A DNA stretch of 64,000 bases from an uncultured Oxalobacter sp. (GTDB lineage: Bacteria; Pseudomonadota; Gammaproteobacteria; Burkholderiales; Burkholderiaceae_D). Each line of letters begins with the position of its first letter. The first letter of the stretch is position 1. A program made the position numbers and the translations under genes. A model generated the notes under the pieces. That model saw nothing but the letters and a program-made list of their open reading frames with translations, had not been told where the DNA came from and searched no databases. Below are positions 2,648 to 8,328 of this stretch, piece by piece. The DNA lies in the NCBI GenBank assembly GCA_905202055.1, contig CAJKQK010000003.1, positions 1,264 through 65,263 on the forward strand, in the 5' to 3' direction.

Positions 2648-3067
2648 ATGCAATTAACCCAACAAACCGATTACGCGTTGCGCATATTAATGTATGCAGC
2701 GGCACATCCCGAGCGGCTGGTCAACATCACCGAGATAGCCGAGTTGTATGGCATTTCCAGAAGCCACCTGACAAAAATCGTCGCCAGCCTCGCCAGCAGC
2801 CACTATCTTGAAAGCATCCGCGGCAACAAAGGCGGCATCCGGCTCAACAGGCCTGCCAGCGAAATCAACATCGGAGAAATCATCCGCCGCTTCGAGCCAT
2901 TGGCCATAGTCGACTGTATGTCAAAAGCCCGAAGCTGCGTCATTACCCCCAACTGCAAACTGAAACATGTTTTCTTTGAAGCGACCGACGCTTTCCTGAA
3001 AACCTTTGACCAATATACCCTCGCTGACATGCTCACCCCTGCACTGATCAGACAGCTGAATACTTGA
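2648..3067 (+). CDS. nsrR: Rrf2-family transcriptional repressor, NO-sensing NsrR type.
   Basis: 139 aa. It has an N-terminal Rrf2 winged helix (MQLTQQTDYALRILMY...) and conserved C-terminal Cys residues (CMSKARSCVITPNC) that would ligate an Fe-S cluster. The genomic context is hcp-hcr. Confidence 0.75.
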   Translation: MQLTQQTDYALRILMYAAAHPERLVNITEIAELYGISRSHLTKIVASLASSHYLESIRGNKGGIRLNRPASEINIGEIIRRFEPLAIVDCMSKARSCVITPNCKLKHVFFEATDAFLKTFDQYTLADMLTPALIRQLNT

Positions 3068-3116
3068 ATCCATATCTGCTTCATCTTCCTTCCACAAAAC
3101 ATTTCAGCATCGCCCG

Positions 3117-3229
3117 AAATCGGACTTTCCCGGACGACAGATACAAAAAAACCCGCATAACTCATTGAATTTATGCGGGTTAATGTACTTCCAGGGGACG
3201 GATTGAAATAATCTTTTGGTGATGAGAGA
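3117..3229. repeat. Direct repeat copy A (~113 bp, ~90% identical to 7278..7390). It includes a partial tRNA-Thr 3' end (3217..3229) and a terminator hairpin.
   Basis: Aligned by eye: aatcggactttcccggacNacagatacaaaaaaacccNcataactcattgaatttatgcgggttaatNtacttc...gggacggNttgaaataat...tggtgNNgatgagag, with about 9 substitutions and a 2-nt indel. Confidence 0.8.
3144..3179 (-). terminator. Rho-independent terminator on the minus strand (stem cccgcataa/ttatgcggg, then a U7 run on the minus-strand RNA). It lies downstream of the restriction-modification operon.
   Basis: Plus strand reads aaaaaaacccgcataactcattgaatttatgcggg. The reverse complement gives a hairpin followed by a T7 run. Confidence 0.6.
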
Positions 3230-3370
3230 CATCAAACTGTATATATTAAACAACAAGTTACGCAATTAAATATAAAATATGCTCCCAAAATGATTATTGC
3301 CTGACATTTTAATTTTGATCATTTCTAATTTATAGGCAATGGAACCGTACTCTTGTGAGAAGGTTACTTG

Positions 3371-4621
3371 TCATTTAGAAGAAATACATTCATTAATTTC
3401 TTTAATAAATCCTTCTAACGACAAAAGATAAGGCTGAATCTTCTTCGGATATTTCGTAACAATTCCATAGGGAACCACCAGTTTGACATGAGCATTGGTC
3501 ATCTCTATGAACTGGTTTTCCGAAACACCTTCCTGTAACGTCAGGAGATGCTTTGTTTCAATCCTGTCCGCTTCATTCAGAATTTGTCTCCAGCGATCCT
3601 TGCAGGTTGTCTTGACTGCCAGCATTCGAAGCTTTTCAGAAGAGAATGATGCATTTTTATAATGACTCTCTGAAGGAAACAAAAAATCTGGTCTTTTGCC
3701 TTTTTCGGATTCAGGTCCGTGAGAAAAATCCTTTCCTTCCACAAGTCCCTCTTCCGTGAAAATATACTTTGTATGAAGCTCAAGAGATCTTCCCGAACGT
3801 GCTTTTCTTCTCTGGAGAATTGTCTGTGCTTTGGCAAGAAAATCATCAATACAGGAAAATCCCGCTTTGATGTATGGAAGTTCTACTGCGAGTTCAAGAC
3901 TTTTAAAAATATTAAATTCACATTCCCTGCGCCTCATAAGCCTCTTGTCAACAGGGAGATCTGCTTCAGGCCGCAACTTGATTGTATGTTCGATAATTTC
4001 CAAGGCTGAAGGAAAACTGGAAAGCCAAGGGAGAGGAATTTCATGTTCATCCAGCCAGCACGTTTCTTCCAGTTTAGCTGTCTTGACCTTTTTCTTTCTG
4101 AAAATGAGCGGGTGAGCTGCTTCATCAGAAGACCACGCTTTCATTTCCCCTGGATCTATTGAGCCAGTAACATTTTCTACAAGCTCCTCTTCTGCGACAT
4201 CCCGACAAACCCATACACGACAATTGATAGCATTCCCGCTTTCATTCAGCAGAAAAGCATAAACAACCAAAGCCCCCGTATTTTCATGATTTTGAAGAGG
4301 AGATCCTTTTCCACCAAAATTGGTTATTCTGACCTCGTTACGTCCCCCTTTAGGATTTTCATGAAAACGATTGTTATACCAAATAACACGAACCTTTTTC
4401 TTTACATCTTTATGAGAATCTGTATAGAGATCAAACCAAGCATCAGGATTTTTTTTCTTTTTATCATTCAGCGCGGGAAGAATACTAAAAAGAAAATCCT
4501 TCGAAATATAGGTACCCGCCTGATGGGTGTGATTAGCACCAGTGTCATTGGCAGAAAGCCTTTTGACAAACCAAATATGTGATGGTGATGAAACATCTTT
4601 AAGCCAGTCAGTCAGATCCAT
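3371..4621 (-). CDS. Type IIE restriction endonuclease of the EcoRII family (predicted CCWGG specificity).
   Basis: 416 aa. Blocks recalled from EcoRII match closely: RLSANDTGA..HQ.G.Y near the N-terminus, TGAL...AF, KPDFLFPS, and LRMLAVKTTCKDRWRQILNEAD...LFTLQEGVS...VKLVVP near the C-terminus. The gene is very AT-rich compared with its neighbours. It overlaps the vsr stop by 14 nt. Confidence 0.88.
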   Translation of the reverse strand: MDLTDWLKDVSSPSHIWFVKRLSANDTGANHTHQAGTYISKDFLFSILPALNDKKKKNPDAWFDLYTDSHKDVKKKVRVIWYNNRFHENPKGGRNEVRITNFGGKGSPLQNHENTGALVVYAFLLNESGNAINCRVWVCRDVAEEELVENVTGSIDPGEMKAWSSDEAAHPLIFRKKKVKTAKLEETCWLDEHEIPLPWLSSFPSALEIIEHTIKLRPEADLPVDKRLMRRRECEFNIFKSLELAVELPYIKAGFSCIDDFLAKAQTILQRRKARSGRSLELHTKYIFTEEGLVEGKDFSHGPESEKGKRPDFLFPSESHYKNASFSSEKLRMLAVKTTCKDRWRQILNEADRIETKHLLTLQEGVSENQFIEMTNAHVKLVVPYGIVTKYPKKIQPYLLSLEGFIKEINECISSK

Positions 4622-5075
4622 TTTTTACTCCACTAATACTGCCAGTTTCAGTGTTTCCTTTTATCCATTCTTCAACAACATCGAGAACCAGATCAAGAGA
4701 TTTCTTATTTTTACCCCGAAGCGTACACTCCCAAATGCTAAAAATGCGCCAATCTTTTTTTAATAAAAGATTTTTGACTTCCTCATCACGTCTGATATTG
4801 CCCTGAATTTTATTCTCCCAAAACTCCCTGTTGGTAGCAGGAAGCCGGAAAAGACTGCAATCATGTCCATGCCAATAGCAGCCATGAGTAAAAATCACAG
4901 CCTTGTACTTTGGCAGGACAATATCCGGCTTGCCCGGTAATTTTTTATCATTGATCCGGTAACGAAAACCTCTTGCAAACAATCCTTTGCGAACGAGCAC
5001 TTCAATTTTTGTGTTTTTTCCACGAATACCGGACATCATCCGGCTTCGTGTTTCCGGATCAACAATATCAGTCAT
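4608..5075 (-). CDS. vsr: Very short patch repair endonuclease (T:G mismatch endonuclease).
   Basis: 155 aa. The Vsr signature region is FTHGCYWHGHDC...NREFWENKI..N..RD. Its ATG overlaps the 3' end of the methyltransferase gene by 8 nt (ATGACTGA), as in dcm-vsr. Confidence 0.9.
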   Translation of the reverse strand: MTDIVDPETRSRMMSGIRGKNTKIEVLVRKGLFARGFRYRINDKKLPGKPDIVLPKYKAVIFTHGCYWHGHDCSLFRLPATNREFWENKIQGNIRRDEEVKNLLLKKDWRIFSIWECTLRGKNKKSLDLVLDVVEEWIKGNTETGSISGVKNGSD

Positions 5076-6375
5076 AACTGAGCTGTTCCTGAATAATGGC
5101 GTTTTCCTCGCGTTCCTTCAGTTCAAGGATCCATGGCTGCATCAGGGAAGCCACATGCTCCATCAACGGCATGACGACCGAATTGCCAAACTGTTTGTAG
5201 GCTCTTGTATCGGAGACGTTAATTTTGAAATCGTCCGGATAGCCCATCAACCTTGCGCATTCTCTTGGAGTGAGACGGCGCGGATTCTTGCCTTCACCGC
5301 GATAAATCAGGATTTCGGAACCGTCCTTGTGATACCGGGCAGACAGCGTTCTGGAGGTATTTTCAGGCTTCACCACACTGCAACCAAAACCGTTCCCCTT
5401 GGCCCGGTGTTTTTCTGCATAGGCCTGCAGATAGTTCCACAACTTGTCAGACAGGATATATTTATCGTGGACCTTTCCGTTCCGGTCAATATATTTGCCG
5501 TCATCCACATCCGTTTCCGTTCCATCTTCAGGATGCAAAATATCTTTCAGTTTCGGCGTTTCAGTTCCGAGTTGTGGAAGCTGGAGAGCATCCCAGTCAA
5601 AACCGGTTTTTTCCCTGAAGCCGACGATCAGGATACGTTCACGATGCTGCGGTACAAAATGCTGCCCATCAATGACGCGCCATGTGATGTGATAGCCAAG
5701 TTCCCGTTCCAGAGTATCCTTGATAACCGAAAAGGTATGGCCCTTGTTATGTGAGAGCAGGTTTTTGACATTCTCAAGCAGGAAGGCCTTAGGCTTCTTT
5801 TCTGCAATAATTCTGGCGACATCAAAAAACAGGGTTCCCTGCGTGGCGCATTCAAACCCGTGCGGACGCCCCATGGCATTTTTCTTGGAAACACCGGCAA
5901 GACTGAACGGCTGGCAGGGAAAACCGGCCAGCAGGACATCATGATCCGGTATGTCGGCCGCATCCACCTTTGTGATGTCGCCGGCGATATTGTGATCATC
6001 CGGGAAGTTGTCTACATAGGTTTTCTGTGCATAGCTGTCCCATTCGCTGGTATAGACGCAACGTCCACCCTGAGCCTCAAACCCCATCCGGATGCCGCCG
6101 ATACCGGCGAACAGATCAATAAAGGTAAATTTGCTTTCGGGTTTCATCTTGGCAGGTTTTGAAGCAATCACTCTGAGTGCCGGAAGAAGTGCAAAAGGTA
6201 TTTCGATCTGCCCCGATTCCCAGCGCGATATATGACGTGGTGAATAATGTAAAAGAGAGGCCAGTTCCTTTTGCGTGTAACGTTCACGCACTTTAGACAA
6301 TACCTGATGAGCCTCGTTATAGTCAGAAATATTCATTTGTTTTTCCATTAAATCGCTGGGACAAACTGCTGACAT
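5068..6375 (-). CDS. DNA (cytosine-5)-methyltransferase, Dcm/M.EcoRII-like, with an N-terminal XRE-type HTH domain.
   Basis: 435 aa. C5-MTase motifs are present: FAGIGG (motif I), PCQPFS (motif IV), ENV (motif VI) and QFGNSV (motif X). The N-terminal region ~YTQKELASLLHYSPRHISRWESGQ is an HTH. The true start may be an internal Met (MEKQMNIS...). Confidence 0.9.
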   Translation of the reverse strand: MSAVCPSDLMEKQMNISDYNEAHQVLSKVRERYTQKELASLLHYSPRHISRWESGQIEIPFALLPALRVIASKPAKMKPESKFTFIDLFAGIGGIRMGFEAQGGRCVYTSEWDSYAQKTYVDNFPDDHNIAGDITKVDAADIPDHDVLLAGFPCQPFSLAGVSKKNAMGRPHGFECATQGTLFFDVARIIAEKKPKAFLLENVKNLLSHNKGHTFSVIKDTLERELGYHITWRVIDGQHFVPQHRERILIVGFREKTGFDWDALQLPQLGTETPKLKDILHPEDGTETDVDDGKYIDRNGKVHDKYILSDKLWNYLQAYAEKHRAKGNGFGCSVVKPENTSRTLSARYHKDGSEILIYRGEGKNPRRLTPRECARLMGYPDDFKINVSDTRAYKQFGNSVVMPLMEHVASLMQPWILELKEREENAIIQEQLSYD

Positions 6376-6398
6376 TATGTCATGTATCCGTCCCGAAT

Positions 6399-6415
6399 AG
6401 TAGCAATTTGCTACT
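6399..6415. promoter_or_regulatory. 17-bp perfect palindrome AGTAGCAA-T-TTGCTACT, 24 bp upstream of the methyltransferase start. Candidate operator for the methyltransferase's own HTH domain.
   Basis: Seen directly in the sequence. HTH-fused C5-MTases such as M.SsoII, M.EcoRII and M.MspI bind inverted repeats in their own promoter regions. Confidence 0.4.
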
Positions 6416-6572
6416 GATTTGATCTGCCCGAAATCAGGAGAAATACCGGAAGAATTATCCGATCAAACAAGAGATCTGTCTGCCCCGGTCCTGTCCGTTT
6501 TGATACGGACGAATCAATATCCCGGACGGGTGTATCCATAAATGGACACACCCGCCAATCAGGAAACAGGGT

Positions 6573-7233
6573 TTAATTGCAATTGGTTTTTCCCGTGCAT
6601 TGGGAAAGACATTTTCGGCCATGCCTCTTCAGTCCCATGTTGGCGCTTTTCGAAAGGTTCCTGTCGTCCGGCCGGTTCAGATAATTTTCTTTTTCACTGA
6701 CAGACACATGTATGAACCGGTCGATTTCCGAAATAAACCCGACCATCTGGCCTTTCAGGGATTTGTGTCCGGACGCTGCTTTTTTCGGGATTGCATTCCG
6801 AACATGTCCAGAACAATATACTGAAGGAATGTGATGTCCTGCCGGTTCTCTTTCCTGCACCTGAGATAAACAAGGGCCAGCGCCCTGCCTGTCGCACAAC
6901 CTCCGGAATATCCGCCAGCACGCGGAACGTTCCAGTAACAGACACTTTTCTTCCTGAGCCTGAAAAAAGGAAGACTGTGAACGGGCAGTGACCTGTCTGA
7001 TAACAGCTTCAAATACAACATCATCCATCGCCAAATAAGCTGCCTCGGCAACAGCCCTGAACCGTCGCGAAGATAACGGAGTCAAGTTCATGAAAACATC
7101 TAGCGACCTTGATGACTACCGTGCCATACTGTCTTCCATAAAGAATGACTTTCCACATTAATGCTTCCTGTCCAAGTTCTTCATGGAACAAGGCATGGTT
7201 TGGCATTACCGGAAAAGGAAGAATGTTCTTCAT
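6573..7233 (-). pseudogene. Frame-disrupted gene remnant of unknown function inside the insertion. At least three overlapping minus-strand reading frames; no recognisable integrase motifs.
   Basis: ORFs 7021..7233, 6573..7091, 6755..7051 and 6694..6945 overlap in different frames. None has a recognisable domain. GC content looks intermediate by eye. Confidence 0.3.
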
Positions 7234-7277
7234 GATCAGTCCCAGTCTTGGCGATTGCGTGAATCATGAACGGACGG

Positions 7278-7375
7278 AATCGGACTTTCCCGGACTACAG
7301 ATACAAAAAAACCCACATAACTCATTGAATTTATGCGGGTTAATATACTTCTTGGGACGGCTTGAAATAATTCTG

Positions 7376-7390
<15 letters not shown>
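7278..7390. repeat. Direct repeat copy B. It lies immediately 3' of, and partly overlaps, the intact tRNA-Thr 3' end.
   Basis: See copy A. Copy B contains the terminator hairpin at 7304..7339, with a G-U wobble in the minus-strand stem. Confidence 0.8.
7304..7339 (-). terminator. Rho-independent terminator downstream of tRNA-Thr on the minus strand.
   Basis: Plus strand reads aaaaaaacccacataactcattgaatttatgcggg. The minus-strand RNA forms the hairpin followed by a U7 run. Confidence 0.55.
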
Positions 7391-7451
<61 letters not shown>

Positions 7452-8328
7452 GAAGCGTGCATTGTAGCAAAAAAAATGCACATCTTGTCGCTATTCATTA
7501 TATAAGAATGATGTTATTCAAACCAGCAACACAATTGTCCGTTTGTGTCTCAGTGTTTCCGGCTGATGCGGGCAATATCTCCGGGAAAATTCTCCGGAGT
7601 AAGCGGTCACCTTTCACTCTTGCACCTGTCTGCCATAACGGCAGATTTACTCTGTTTCCCTTTTTCTGCCTTTGTTTTGGATCTGTTTTTTGTCGGGTAT
7701 CGATGGATATGAAAAAATCCGTCGGGCCGGGCCCAAAACGCACCTGTTGATTGTGAACGTATATTTGTCATCAGCCTCACATCGAGGCTATATCTGAAAG
7801 CACGTGTCGGATCATCAAGGAACACCAGTGTTACAGCTGCAAACGGCGAGATATTTTTTTCAGGAAAGTCTGAAGTGTCAGAGGGCAGGAATAAAAACGT
7901 ATGCGATCCGACTTGCGTCGGGTCTATACTCACATTCCTGGCAAATCATCGTACTAAATCAGTTCAGGCGCAATGGCGTTATTGATGAAGATGATTTGCT
8001 GGCACAGCCTTGCTATGACAAGGAATAAAAGACGCAAGGCAAAAATCATAAAAAATGAGAAGGCTGTTGTCTTGTCTCTGAACTGGAATGACAAGGAGTG
8101 ATCAGGAAAATCAAAAACGTCATTGAAAGAACTTCTTGCCAGTTTATAAACATGATTTTTTTGCGCCCGTATTTCGAACGGGACGAACGCCTTCCAAACA
8201 ACACAGGGATTATATTTTTAATCAATAGTGTGCAATAAATTTTGAAGCCTAAAATTAGTACATAAATCAGAATGGAAAATTTTCGGTAAACTGTCTGTAC
8301 AATTCGCCCTTTCTTTTAAGGAACCATA

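What the first reader, a model, noticed from the sequence alone, without database searches (positions are those of the whole stretch)
3371..6375. Tightly overlapping co-directional MTase–Vsr–REase operon (EcoRII-like), with Vsr embedded inside the R-M unit
The gene order on the minus strand is C5-MTase → vsr → REase. There is an 8-nt overlap between MTase and vsr (ATGACTGA) and a 14-nt overlap between vsr and REase. This implies translational coupling of all three genes. The REase shares several long sequence blocks with EcoRII, which cuts CCWGG and is a type IIE enzyme with an N-terminal effector domain, so the MTase is predicted to make C5-methyl-CCWGG. Vsr would repair the T:G mismatches produced by deamination of 5mC at those sites. 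dcm-vsr pairing is well known, but having vsr physically wedged between M and R and co-translated with the nuclease is an unusual architecture. From memory, the classical EcoRII plasmid system has no vsr and its R and M genes are not arranged this way. It would make the mutation-avoidance function co-inherited and co-expressed with the restriction activity.
Basis: partly seen in the sequence, partly recalled or inferred. Interest (0 to 1): 0.6.

Follow-up and report, generated by a model that had tools for sequence, protein, structure and literature searches.

The report
EcoRII-like methylase–Vsr–nuclease operon, ordinary layout
This is an intact three-gene restriction-modification operon (cytosine methylase, Vsr mismatch-repair nuclease, EcoRII-type restriction enzyme) in a gut Oxalobacter genome. 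Its overlapping gene layout is the usual one for this branch of the family and was published for a phage in 2010, so it is correctly read but not new.

Summary
Three minus-strand ORFs encode a C5-methyltransferase (5068-6375), Vsr (4608-5075) and an EcoRII-type endonuclease (3371-4621). They overlap by exactly 8 nt (ATGACTGA) and 14 nt (ATGGATCTGACTGA).

All three proteins look functional. EcoRII's four catalytic residues, its K-D-R CC:GG-reading triplet and all seven base-contacting residues of its effector domain are conserved. The methylase is 52-55% identical to Dcm and M.EcoRII. Vsr keeps its catalytic and zinc residues. CCWGG is strongly depleted in the window (72 observed, 219 expected).

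- Of the 80 closest loci from GTDB species genomes, 64 have the same M→V→R order. The 8-nt overlap is modal (37/64), and so is the 14-nt overlap (21/64).
- All six complete loci of this clade in IMG/VR have the same order.
- The same module order was described in Burkholderia phage KL3 in 2010, with an EcoRII-C-type nuclease and the same functional model.

The classical convergent, vsr-less EcoRII of enterobacterial plasmids is a different clade.

Extras: the methylase has an N-terminal HTH, and an SsoII-like palindrome (TGACATAATGTCA) spans its start codon. The 4-kb island sits beside tRNA-Thr, a strain-variable slot, between ~120-bp direct repeats.

The parts
5068..6375 (-). C5-cytosine DNA methyltransferase of the Dcm/M.EcoRII type, 435 aa, first gene of the operon
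   Evidence: ORF. Pfam DNA_methylase at residues 83-410, E=4.7e-88. TIGR00675 scores 336.9 bits against a cut-off of 100.65. It is 52% identical to E. coli Dcm and 55% to M.EcoRII, and 60-68% in the target-recognition core. The start codon is uncertain (M1 at 6375, M10 or M14); gene callers chose 435, 426 or 422 aa on near-identical contigs.
6187..6306 (-). N-terminal helix-turn-helix (XRE-type) region of the methylase, roughly residues 24-63; the presumed repressor domain
   Evidence: Pfam HTH_3 at residues 32-63, 26.2 bits against a cut-off of 23, and HTH_31 at residues 30-61. It aligns with the N-terminal regions of Dcm and M.EcoRII. M.EcoRII and M.SsoII repress their own genes through such a domain (PMC3874152; PMC12707154; PMC3978073).
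6370..6382 (.). 13-bp perfect palindrome TGACATAATGTCA spanning the first ATG of the methylase ORF; candidate operator
   Evidence: It is the only perfect TGNCA-N3-TGNCA site in the 64-kb window. The same motif occurs at the 5' end of M in related loci: 11 perfect sites in 14.6 kb there against 1 in 876 kb of background, and 31 of 73 loci with at most one mismatch. It keeps its dyad through paired changes: TGCCA..TGGCA 7 times, TGACA..TGTCA 3, TGGCA..TGCCA 1. It goes with HTH-bearing methylases (Fisher p=0.002). Its core GACA-N3-TGTC equals that of the SsoII regulatory site AGGACAAATTGTCCT (PMC3978073). Binding was not tested.
6399..6415 (.). Second palindrome AGTAGCAAATTGCTACT, centred 31 bp upstream of the first; possible auxiliary operator
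   Evidence: 8-bp arms around a single central base. The terminator scan also lists it as a plus-strand hairpin. Its layout resembles the SsoII site (AG...AAATT...CT). Function is inferred only.
5068..5075 (-). M/V junction: 8-nt overlap ATGACTGA (V start ATG, M stop TGA)
   Evidence: Read directly. The same 8-nt geometry is found in 37 of 64 M-V-R loci and was checked by eye in several.
4608..5075 (-). Vsr very-short-patch-repair T:G mismatch endonuclease, 155 aa
   Evidence: Pfam Vsr E=2.2e-34. TIGR00632 scores 145.3 bits against a cut-off of 97.85. It is 41% identical to E. coli Vsr. The residues equivalent to D51, T63, H64, H69 and D97, the zinc ligands C66/H71/C73/C117 and the intercalating W68/W86 are all conserved, with F67 changed to Y. 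The roles assigned to these residues are from memory of the Vsr crystal-structure literature.
4608..4621 (-). V/R junction: 14-nt overlap ATGGATCTGACTGA, with GGAG 6 nt upstream of the R start
   Evidence: Read directly. The same 14-nt overlap is modal in related loci, 21 of 64.
3371..4621 (-). EcoRII-type (Type IIE) restriction endonuclease, 416 aa, last gene of the operon
   Evidence: Matches PDB 1na6 EcoRII at E=3.7e-88 over residues 5-410. Catalytic E271/D299/K324/E337 correspond to E281/D312/K337/E350. The CC:GG readers K328-D329-R330 correspond to K341-D342-R343 (residue roles from PMC2770665).
4121..4588 (-). EcoRII-N effector (B3-like) DNA-binding domain, residues 12-167
   Evidence: Pfam PF09217 E=1.8e-46. 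All seven base-contacting residues of EcoRII-N (N28, H36, Q37, Y85, R94, E96, R98) are conserved.
3404..3907 (-). EcoRII-C catalytic domain, residues 239-406
   Evidence: Pfam PF09019 E=2.2e-60. In the flipped-base pocket, R222, E225, F229 and R265 are conserved, while Y226 is F and A266 is S; N260 is Q.
3144..3179 (-). Intrinsic terminator hairpin (CCCGCATAA...TTATGCGGG followed by U7), about 190 nt downstream of the R stop
   Evidence: RNA fold -19.9 kcal/mol, z=-6.2 against shuffles. It lies inside the left flanking repeat, so it is a copy of the native tRNA-Thr terminator.
3104..3225 (.). Left copy of the ~120-bp direct repeat flanking the island
   Evidence: the repeat finder families D1 and D2, 84-88% identical to 7264-7384. 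A strain with the empty site (L090) has one copy.
7264..7384 (.). Right copy of the direct repeat; its end overlaps the 3' end of tRNA-Thr
7376..7451 (-). tRNA-Thr(CGT), the landmark of the insertion slot
   Evidence: ARAGORN. Rfam tRNA at 76.7 bits.
6573..7091 (-). 172-aa ORF of unknown function inside the island, upstream of M; may not be a gene
   Evidence: No Pfam hit. No homologue in the 80 related loci. It was called as a gene on only some near-identical contigs.

Best explanation
This is an intact, horizontally acquired Type IIE restriction-modification operon of the EcoRII family, most probably specific for CCWGG. It lies on a ~4-kb island beside tRNA-Thr in a human-gut Oxalobacter genome.

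How it most likely works:
- One transcript runs M→V→R and ends at a strong hairpin terminator.
- The methylase (Dcm/M.EcoRII type) makes C(5mC)WGG and so protects host DNA.
- Its N-terminal HTH probably binds an SsoII-like palindrome over its own start codon and holds the whole operon under negative feedback.
- Vsr nicks 5' of the T in C(T:G)WGG mismatches left by 5mC deamination. Very-short-patch repair then restores the C, which lowers the mutational cost of carrying the methylase.
- The endonuclease cuts unmethylated CCWGG only after its N-terminal effector domain has bound a second site.
- The 8-nt and 14-nt stop/start overlaps probably couple V and R translation to the upstream gene, which sets M ≥ V ≥ R output and makes the methylase first.

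Shown: gene identities, intact catalytic and DNA-reading residues, the exact overlaps, conservation of the order and overlap geometry across many phyla, CCWGG depletion, and the island boundaries.

Inferred: specificity, translational coupling, autoregulation and in vivo activity.

The M-V-R layout is the standard one for this clade, not a new architecture.
For: - Gene identities.
- Residue conservation. E271/D299/K324/E337, K328-D329-R330 and 7 of 7 EcoRII-N base contacts are conserved. The methylase target-recognition core is 60-68% identical to Dcm/M.EcoRII. Vsr catalytic and zinc residues are intact.
- Overlaps were read directly.
- Architecture is common: 64 of 80 GTDB species loci are M+V+R+, with a modal M/V overlap of 8 nt (37/64) and V/R overlap of 14 nt (21/64). 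They span Alpha-, Beta- and Gammaproteobacteria, Acidobacteriota, Chloroflexota, Planctomycetota, Nitrospinota, Bacteroidota and one archaeal MAG.
- 6 of 6 complete loci of this clade in IMG/VR have the same order.
- It is annotated on the Sphingomonas melonis TY plasmid.
- It was published for phage KL3 gp47-46-45, with 1-nt and 4-nt overlaps (PMC3091744).
- REBASE nomenclature has a 'V.' prefix for Vsr members of R-M systems (PMC4081073), and NmeDI and NmeAI carry Vsr (PMC7973814).
- CCWGG observed/expected is 72/219 = 0.33, against 0.91 for CCSGG.
- Operator. HTH-methylase autorepression: PMC3874152 and PMC12707154.
- Terminator.
- Island and slot.
Against: - No experimental or methylome data exist for this strain, so specificity rests on homology at about 40% (REase) and 52-55% (methylase) identity to characterised enzymes.
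- Three pocket or minor-groove residues differ from EcoRII: Y226F, A266S and N260Q.
- The methylase scores below NCBI's Dcm subfamily cut-off, 431 against 710 bits.
- CCWGG depletion is a property of the whole Oxalobacter flank, which is 98-99% identical in strains without the island. It cannot be credited to this particular island.
- The promoter scan gave nothing above chance, 6 sites against 6.6 expected.
- The methylase start codon is ambiguous.
- SD-like sequences precede both internal starts, so independent initiation is possible instead of coupling.
- The survey kept only the best 80 of at least 575 genomic matches.
Confidence: 0.88

Rival explanations
1. One reading: vsr embedded between M and R, and co-translated with the nuclease, is an unusual and previously unrecognised architecture for EcoRII-like systems.
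For: Classical enterobacterial EcoRII has convergent R and M genes and no vsr. So do 37 of the 63 IMG/VR loci, most at about 42% identity.
Against: 64 of the 80 closest species-level loci have the same order, and the same overlaps are modal. All 6 complete loci of this clade in IMG/VR have it. It is PGAP-annotated on a Sphingomonas plasmid. It was described, with the same model, for phage KL3 in 2010.
Confidence: 0.03
2. The architecture is the same, but the specificity is not CCWGG. It could be CCNGG, as for SsoII/Ecl18kI, or an extended or variant CC-N-GG site.
For: The pocket and minor-groove residues Y226F, A266S and N260Q differ from EcoRII. Central-base discrimination in this family is not understood from structure (PMC2770665). 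The methylase is below the Dcm subfamily cut-off. The operator resembles that of SsoII, which is a CCNGG system.
Against: All seven EcoRII-N residues that read CCTGG are conserved, including the A:T-specific contacts N28, Q37, Y85 and R98. E225 and F229 are conserved too. The methylase target-recognition core is 60-68% identical to two CCWGG methylases. CCWGG is depleted to 0.33, while CCSGG is at 0.91.
Confidence: 0.08
3. The overlaps reflect genome compaction only. V and R are initiated independently, or the system is silent or decaying in this host.
For: SD-like GGAG and AGGAA precede the R and V starts. No convincing promoter was found. Gene callers disagree on the M and V starts among near-identical contigs. 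The island lacks its own mobility genes.
Against: The exact overlap lengths are conserved across phyla although the junction sequences differ, which argues for constraint. All three ORFs are intact with complete catalytic sets. From memory, vsr translation in E. coli depends on translation of the overlapping dcm gene (Dar and Bhagwat 1993; not retrievable here).
Confidence: 0.1

Closest known systems
Burkholderia phage KL3 DNA-modification module, gp47 (EcoRII methylase), gp46 (Vsr), gp45 (EcoRII-C endonuclease); Lynch et al. 2010, PMC3091744
   Same: It has the same three functions in the same co-directional order M→V→R with overlapping stop and start codons. The published model is also the same: restrict CCWGG, protect by 5mC, repair deamination with Vsr.
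   Different: KL3's nuclease matches only the EcoRII-C half, residues 225-405 at 38% identity, so it lacks a recognisable EcoRII-N effector domain. Its overlaps are 1 and 4 nt rather than 8 and 14. It is carried on a P2-like phage rather than a chromosomal islet.
Classical EcoRII R-M system of enterobacterial IncN and other plasmids (R.EcoRII, PDB 1na6/3hqf/3hqg; M.EcoRII)
   Same: It has the same two-domain Type IIE nuclease. Identity is about 40% over the full length, with the catalytic, CC:GG-reading and effector-domain base-contact residues conserved. The methylase is 55% identical and also has an N-terminal regulatory region.
   Different: R and M are convergent and 33 nt apart, with no vsr gene. 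M.EcoRII represses only its own gene (PMC12707154), whereas here a single operon would be repressed as a whole.
E. coli K-12 dcm-vsr operon
   Same: The methylase gene is followed by an overlapping vsr gene. The overlap is 20 nt in K-12. Dcm is 52% and Vsr 41% identical to the proteins here. Vsr plays the same CCWGG / C(T:G)WGG repair role.
   Different: K-12 has no restriction gene; Dcm is a solitary methylase (PMC4924334). The overlap length differs.
SsoII/Ecl18kI-type bifunctional methylases (N-terminal HTH that binds the regulatory site AGGACAAATTGTCCT)
   Same: The methylase has an N-terminal HTH. Palindromes at the 5' end of M share the core GACA-N3-TGTC and the AG...AAATT...CT layout.
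   Different: SsoII recognises CCNGG. Its R and M genes are divergent, and methylase binding switches between two promoters (PMC3978073, PMC2760811). Here the site lies over the start codon of the first gene of a single operon. Binding is untested.
Neisseria R-M systems that carry Vsr (NmeDI, NmeAI, NgoAXIV)
   Same: They are Type II C5-methylase R-M systems with a Vsr gene as a named third component, REBASE prefix 'V.' (PMC7973814; PMC6789123; PMC4081073).
   Different: The specificities differ (RCCGGY, CCGG), the nucleases are unrelated, and the gene order differs (Vsr is described as preceding the R-M genes).

Membership tests
EcoRII family, Type IIE restriction endonuclease | Two-domain architecture: an N-terminal effector domain (Pfam EcoRII-N) plus a C-terminal PD-(D/E)XK catalytic domain (Pfam EcoRII-C) | tested here: met
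   PF09217 E=1.8e-46 at residues 12-167, and PF09019 E=2.2e-60 at residues 239-406. Full-length match to 1na6 at E=3.7e-88.
EcoRII family, Type IIE restriction endonuclease | Catalytic residues E271, D299, K324 and E337 | tested here: met
   They align to E281, D312, K337 and E350. Residue roles come from PMC2770665.
EcoRII family, Type IIE restriction endonuclease | CC:GG half-site readers K328-D329-R330, and the base contacts of EcoRII-N (N28, H36, Q37, Y85, R94, E96, R98) | tested here: met
   All are conserved. N260 is Q, Y226 is F and A266 is S.
EcoRII family, Type IIE restriction endonuclease | Cleaves unmethylated CCWGG only when a second site is bound (autoinhibition relieved by the effector site) | not testable with these tools
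   This needs cleavage assays on one-site and two-site substrates.
Dcm / M.EcoRII C5-cytosine methyltransferases (CCWGG) | C5-methyltransferase catalytic domain with the conserved motifs | tested here: met
   PF00145 E=4.7e-88. TIGR00675 scores 336.9 against a cut-off of 100.65. FPCQPFS, ENVKN and QHRER are identical to Dcm.
Dcm / M.EcoRII C5-cytosine methyltransferases (CCWGG) | NCBIfam Dcm subfamily model NF007772 at its curated cut-off | tested here: not met
   431.2 bits against a cut-off of 710. It is a relative of Dcm, but not a member of that narrow enterobacterial subfamily.
Dcm / M.EcoRII C5-cytosine methyltransferases (CCWGG) | Target-recognition domain of the CCWGG type, and methylation of the inner C of CCWGG | tested here: inconclusive
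   The target-recognition core is 60% identical to Dcm and 68% to M.EcoRII, which supports CCWGG. The methylation itself was not measured.
[quoted passage not shown] | Vsr fold with the catalytic Asp/His residues and the Zn site | tested here: met
   PF03852 E=2.2e-34. TIGR00632 scores 145.3 against a cut-off of 97.85. D51, H64, H69, D97, C66, H71, C73 and C117 are conserved. Residue roles are from memory of the Vsr structure literature.
M-V-R three-gene EcoRII-like operon (as in phage KL3 and the 64 GTDB loci) | Co-directional order methylase, then vsr, then nuclease, with overlapping or abutting reading frames | tested here: met
   for the window. for the comparison set.
SsoII-type self-repressing methylases | N-terminal HTH domain fused to the methyltransferase | tested here: met
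   HTH_3 scores 26.2 bits against a cut-off of 23, at residues 32-63.
SsoII-type self-repressing methylases | Binding of the methylase to a palindromic regulatory site at its own promoter, with repression | not testable with these tools
   Candidate sites lie at 6370-6382 and 6399-6415. They are enriched and keep their dyad symmetry through paired changes in relatives and are SsoII-like. No binding or expression data exist.

The most novel reading that the evidence does not exclude
In this clade the HTH-methylase may bind an SsoII-like TGNCA-N3-TGNCA operator lying right on the start codon of the first gene. That would put methylase, Vsr and nuclease under one negative-feedback loop, with fixed 8-nt and 14-nt translational couplings setting their ratio. 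This regulatory design differs from the characterised EcoRII design (self-repression of M only) and from the SsoII/Ecl18kI design (promoter switching between divergent genes). Vsr might also be kept less for the host's benefit than to stop the element's own CCWGG target sites from decaying. In addition, the islet may move by ~120-bp target duplication at tRNA-Thr, swapping with other R-M cassettes.
Probability: 0.2. Interest if true: 0.35.

Novelty: new member of a known kind. Interest (0 to 1): 0.12.

Why it matters
Mostly it does not change anything. It is a correct annotation of an uncharacterised Oxalobacter R-M system, whose nuclease is at most 63% identical to its closest non-self relatives in the database, and it belongs to a well-populated, already described architecture.

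Three points have modest value:
- The survey makes explicit that, among the families sampled, Vsr-containing operons (M-V-R, M-R-V, V-M-R) are common for EcoRII relatives. The textbook vsr-less convergent EcoRII is a clade-specific exception.
- A strain-variable CCWGG restriction barrier could affect genetic manipulation, and phage or plasmid uptake, in Oxalobacter, a gut oxalate degrader of clinical interest. DNA prepared in a dcm+ E. coli host should be protected.
- The conserved start-codon palindrome gives a testable operator for HTH-methylase feedback.

Tried and rejected
- Promoter scan of 3000-6800: 6 sites against 6.6 expected from shuffles, so not informative.
- Rfam on the whole window found only the tRNA.
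- NCBIfam has no model that hits the nuclease.
- The 172-aa ORF upstream of M has no Pfam hit and no homologue or DNA similarity in the 80 related loci, so it is left unassigned.
- Deciding the methylase start codon: the N-terminal 'MS.(V/I).P' recurs in a few relatives whose ATG also lies in the palindrome. In two of them that ATG sits inside a -10-like TAATGT placed 17-18 nt after TTGAC(A/G). The start could therefore be M1 or a downstream Met. Inconclusive.
- I first took the 6399-6415 palindrome as the main operator. The comparative scan showed that the conserved element is the 6370-6382 site.
- An N-terminal 83-aa tblastn search against plasmids found other HTH-dcm fusions. One is an Enterobacter M→R system with a near-palindrome GGGTCATAATGTCCC upstream, but it is not SsoII/Ecl18kI itself.
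- Kwiatek 2010 (PMC2916375) and Som & Friedman 1994 (PMC332081) are not held. No literature on Oxalobacter R-M systems was found.
- Crediting the CCWGG depletion to this island was rejected, because the flanks are 98-99% identical in strains that lack it.
- Structure prediction and the large protein-representative search were not run. The matches to solved structures made them unnecessary.

Full report
**1. Observation**

- methylase (M), 5068-6375, 435 aa;
- Vsr (V), 4608-5075, 155 aa;
- endonuclease (R), 3371-4621, 416 aa.

Reading the minus strand gives both junctions.
- The M stop TGA (5070-5068) lies 5 nt after the V start ATG (5075-5073). This is an 8-nt overlap, ATGACTGA.
- The V stop TGA (4610-4608) lies 11 nt after the R start ATG (4621-4619). 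This is a 14-nt overlap, ATGGATCTGACTGA.
- GGAG sits 6 nt before the R start, and AGGAA 11 nt before the V start.

These are real genes.
- Pfam gives DNA_methylase (4.7e-88) plus an N-terminal HTH_3 (8.5e-6) for M, Vsr (2.2e-34) for V, and EcoRII-N (1.8e-46) plus EcoRII-C (2.2e-60) for R.
- NCBIfam agrees for M and V and has no model for R.
- Against solved structures, R matches EcoRII 1na6 over its full length (E=3.7e-88), V matches E. coli Vsr (6.4e-39), and M matches Dcm (9.8e-100).

**2. What the proteins look like in detail**

I took EcoRII and M.EcoRII from IncN plasmid pEcNDM1 and Dcm and Vsr from E. coli K-12. I then mapped the residues that the EcoRII-DNA structures identify (PMC2770665).
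- Conserved in R: catalytic E271/D299/K324/E337; the CC:GG readers K328-D329-R330; all seven EcoRII-N base contacts (N28, H36, Q37, Y85, R94, E96, R98); and pocket residues R222, E225, F229 and R265.
- Changed in R: Y226F, A266S and N260Q.
- Overall identity of R to EcoRII is about 40%.
- M is 52% identical to Dcm and 55% to M.EcoRII. In the core of the target-recognition region the figures are 60% and 68%. M falls below NCBI's narrow Dcm subfamily cut-off (431 against 710 bits).
- V is 41% identical to E. coli Vsr, with D51, H64, H69, D97, the zinc ligands and the intercalating tryptophans conserved. The roles of these Vsr residues are from my memory of the structure papers.
- CCWGG occurs 72 times in the window against 219 expected from a maximal-order Markov model (0.33). 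The control CCSGG is at 0.91 and CTWGG/CCWAG at 0.88.

Together this makes CCWGG the likely specificity. The depletion belongs to the lineage rather than to this island, because strains without the island share 98-99% identical flanks.

**3. Is the architecture unusual?**

No. I aligned 19 homologues of R and scanned one genome per GTDB species. At least 575 stretches encode relatives, and the best 80 were fetched (44-60% identity).

tblastn with the window's M, V and R shows the following.
- 64 of 80 loci have M+ V+ R+ in one direction.
- 10 have M+ R+ without V.
- Three have other arrangements.
- Three have no M or V hit; in two of them R lies near a contig end.
- Among the 64, the modal M/V overlap is 8 nt (37 loci) and the modal V/R overlap is 14 nt (21 loci). 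The window's exact geometry is therefore the family norm.
- I checked several junctions by eye. Examples are TTGGCTGA at M/V and ATGGCAGTCTCTGA at V/R, so the geometry is the same although the sequences differ.
- The 64 loci come from Alpha-, Beta- and Gammaproteobacteria, Acidobacteriota, Chloroflexota, Planctomycetota, Nitrospinota, Thermodesulfobacteriota, Bacteroidota and one archaeal MAG.

A second, unselected sample of 63 IMG/VR loci covers 29-63% identity.
- All six complete loci of this clade (48-60% identity) are M-V-R.
- The enterobacterial EcoRII group is R+ M- convergent without V: 37 loci, nearly all at about 42% identity.
- The distant clades (29-35%) show M-R-V, V-M-R and M-R.
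- Four loci whose nuclease matches only the EcoRII-C half include three M-V-R loci.

Annotated records agree.
- The Sphingomonas melonis TY plasmid carries dcm, then a 'very short patch repair endonuclease', then a 'type II restriction endonuclease'.
- pEcNDM1 and two Klebsiella/E. coli plasmids carry the convergent, vsr-less form.

**4. Literature**

- Lynch et al. [quoted passage not shown] The order is the same, the frames overlap, and the restriction / protection / VSP-repair model is the same (PMC3091744; record checked). KL3's nuclease matches only the C-terminal domain.
- REBASE nomenclature reserves 'V.' for Vsr members of R-M systems (PMC4081073).
- The Neisseria NmeDI and NmeAI systems include Vsr (PMC7973814; PMC6789123).
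- Gene-neighbourhood studies had noted Vsr beside methylases and EcoRII-like nucleases (PMC2292703).

Its recollection about classical EcoRII is correct.

**5. Regulation (inferred)**

The methylase carries an N-terminal HTH. M.EcoRII, M.SsoII/Ecl18kI, M.MspI and M.ScrFIA repress their own genes through such a domain (PMC3874152; PMC12707154; PMC3978073).

- A perfect 13-bp palindrome, TGACATAATGTCA (6370-6382), spans the first ATG of M. It is the only perfect TGNCA-N3-TGNCA site in the 64-kb window.
- In related loci the motif sits at the 5' end of M: 11 perfect sites in 14.6 kb there, against 1 in 876 kb elsewhere in the same loci. With at most one mismatch it is found in 31 of 73 loci.
- The arms change in pairs that keep the dyad: TGCCA..TGGCA, TGACA..TGTCA and TGGCA..TGCCA.
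- The motif goes with methylases whose HTH region aligns (29/55 against 2/18, Fisher p=0.002). The loci are related to one another, so this is not an independent-sample test.
- Its core GACA-N3-TGTC is that of the SsoII regulatory site AGGACAAATTGTCCT.
- A second palindrome, AGTAGCAAATTGCTACT (6399-6415), lies 31 bp upstream.

I infer SsoII-type negative feedback, here acting on one M-V-R transcript. Binding, the promoter and the true start codon (M1, M10 or M14) are not established. The transcript should end at a strong hairpin plus U7 at 3144-3179 (-19.9 kcal/mol, z=-6.2).

**6. Genomic setting**

Exact-sequence look-ups place the flanking genes in Oxalobacter formigenes-group genomes and human-gut metagenomes.

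- The R-M genes are rare there, with clusters of 1-4 members. The flanking NsrR, DsbC and EamA proteins have clusters of 60-70 members.
- Comparison with a strain that has an empty site (L090) shows that 3230-7274 is an insertion.
- The insertion is bounded by ~120-bp direct repeats, 3104-3225 and 7264-7384, which are 84-88% identical.
- The right repeat abuts tRNA-Thr(CGT) at 7376-7451. The repeat contains the tRNA's terminator, so the operon ends at a duplicated copy of it.
- The same slot holds a BglII-like R-M system in another strain (L093) and an integrase/relaxase element in a third (L091).
- The island has lower G+C (0.44; R and V 0.40) than the window (0.475).

**7. Verdict**

The architecture is ordinary for this clade and is already in the literature. 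The system is a new, uncharacterised member of a known kind, so interest is low. The small residual interest lies in the conserved start-codon operator and in the cassette-swapping slot at tRNA-Thr.

Noticed in passing
window 3104-3225 and 7264-7384; tRNA-Thr 7376-7451; loci L090, L091, L093: The R-M island (about 3230-7274) lies in a strain-variable slot between nsrR and tRNA-Thr/dsbC, flanked by ~120-bp direct repeats that include the tRNA terminator. Other Oxalobacter contigs have the slot empty (L090), filled by an N6/N4-methylase plus BglII-like nuclease (L093), or filled by an integrase/relaxase element (L091). This resembles 'insertion with long target duplication' and cassette exchange.
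   Followed up: partly
window, whole 64 kb: CCWGG is strongly under-represented (72 observed, 219 expected; 0.33). GGWCC is also low (40 against 80; 0.50). CCSGG and CTWGG/CCWAG are near expectation. This suggests long-standing restriction pressure on these sites in the lineage.
   Followed up: partly
window 6370-6382 and 6399-6415; 5' ends of M in L003, L035, L038, L045, L050, L053, L054, L059, L063, L065, L075 and others: A conserved TGNCA-N3-TGNCA palindrome lies at or over the methylase start codon, with paired arm changes that keep the dyad. Its core is identical to the SsoII regulatory site. It is probably the operator of the HTH-methylase.
   Followed up: partly
window 6573-7091 (-): A 172-aa ORF inside the island, upstream of M, has no Pfam hit and no homologue in 80 related loci. 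It is called as a gene on only some near-identical contigs and may be non-coding.
   Followed up: partly
window 7452-8328: About 870 bp between tRNA-Thr and dsbC have no convincing ORF and no Rfam hit. Their function is unknown.
   Followed up: no
L079 5968-6474 and 6529-7731: In a Dehalococcoidia MAG the operon reads M, V, a stand-alone 168-aa EcoRII-N-like ORF, and then a full-length EcoRII-like nuclease. That is an extra, separate effector-domain protein.
   Followed up: no
L086 (Sphingomonas melonis TY plasmid) 4124-4726 and 7200-7613: The nuclease downstream of dcm-vsr is annotated only as a 200-aa C-terminal piece, so it may be disrupted. A separate 'EcoRII N-terminal effector-binding domain' protein sits next to a DEAD/DEAH helicase, an ATPase and an HNH nuclease.
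   Followed up: no
IMG/VR loci L139, L141, L146, L149, L158 (M-R-V) and L142, L148, L150 (V-M-R): Distant EcoRII relatives (29-35% identity) also carry vsr, but in other positions. Vsr association with this nuclease family is therefore widespread and has been rearranged several times.
   Followed up: partly
L160 2430-2465 (Enterobacter cloacae plasmid p3442-IncR): Another HTH-dcm fusion, 38% identical in the N-terminal region and followed by a co-directional nuclease, has the near-palindrome GGGTCATAATGTCCC about 20 bp (roughly 18-32 bp) upstream of its start codon.
   Followed up: no
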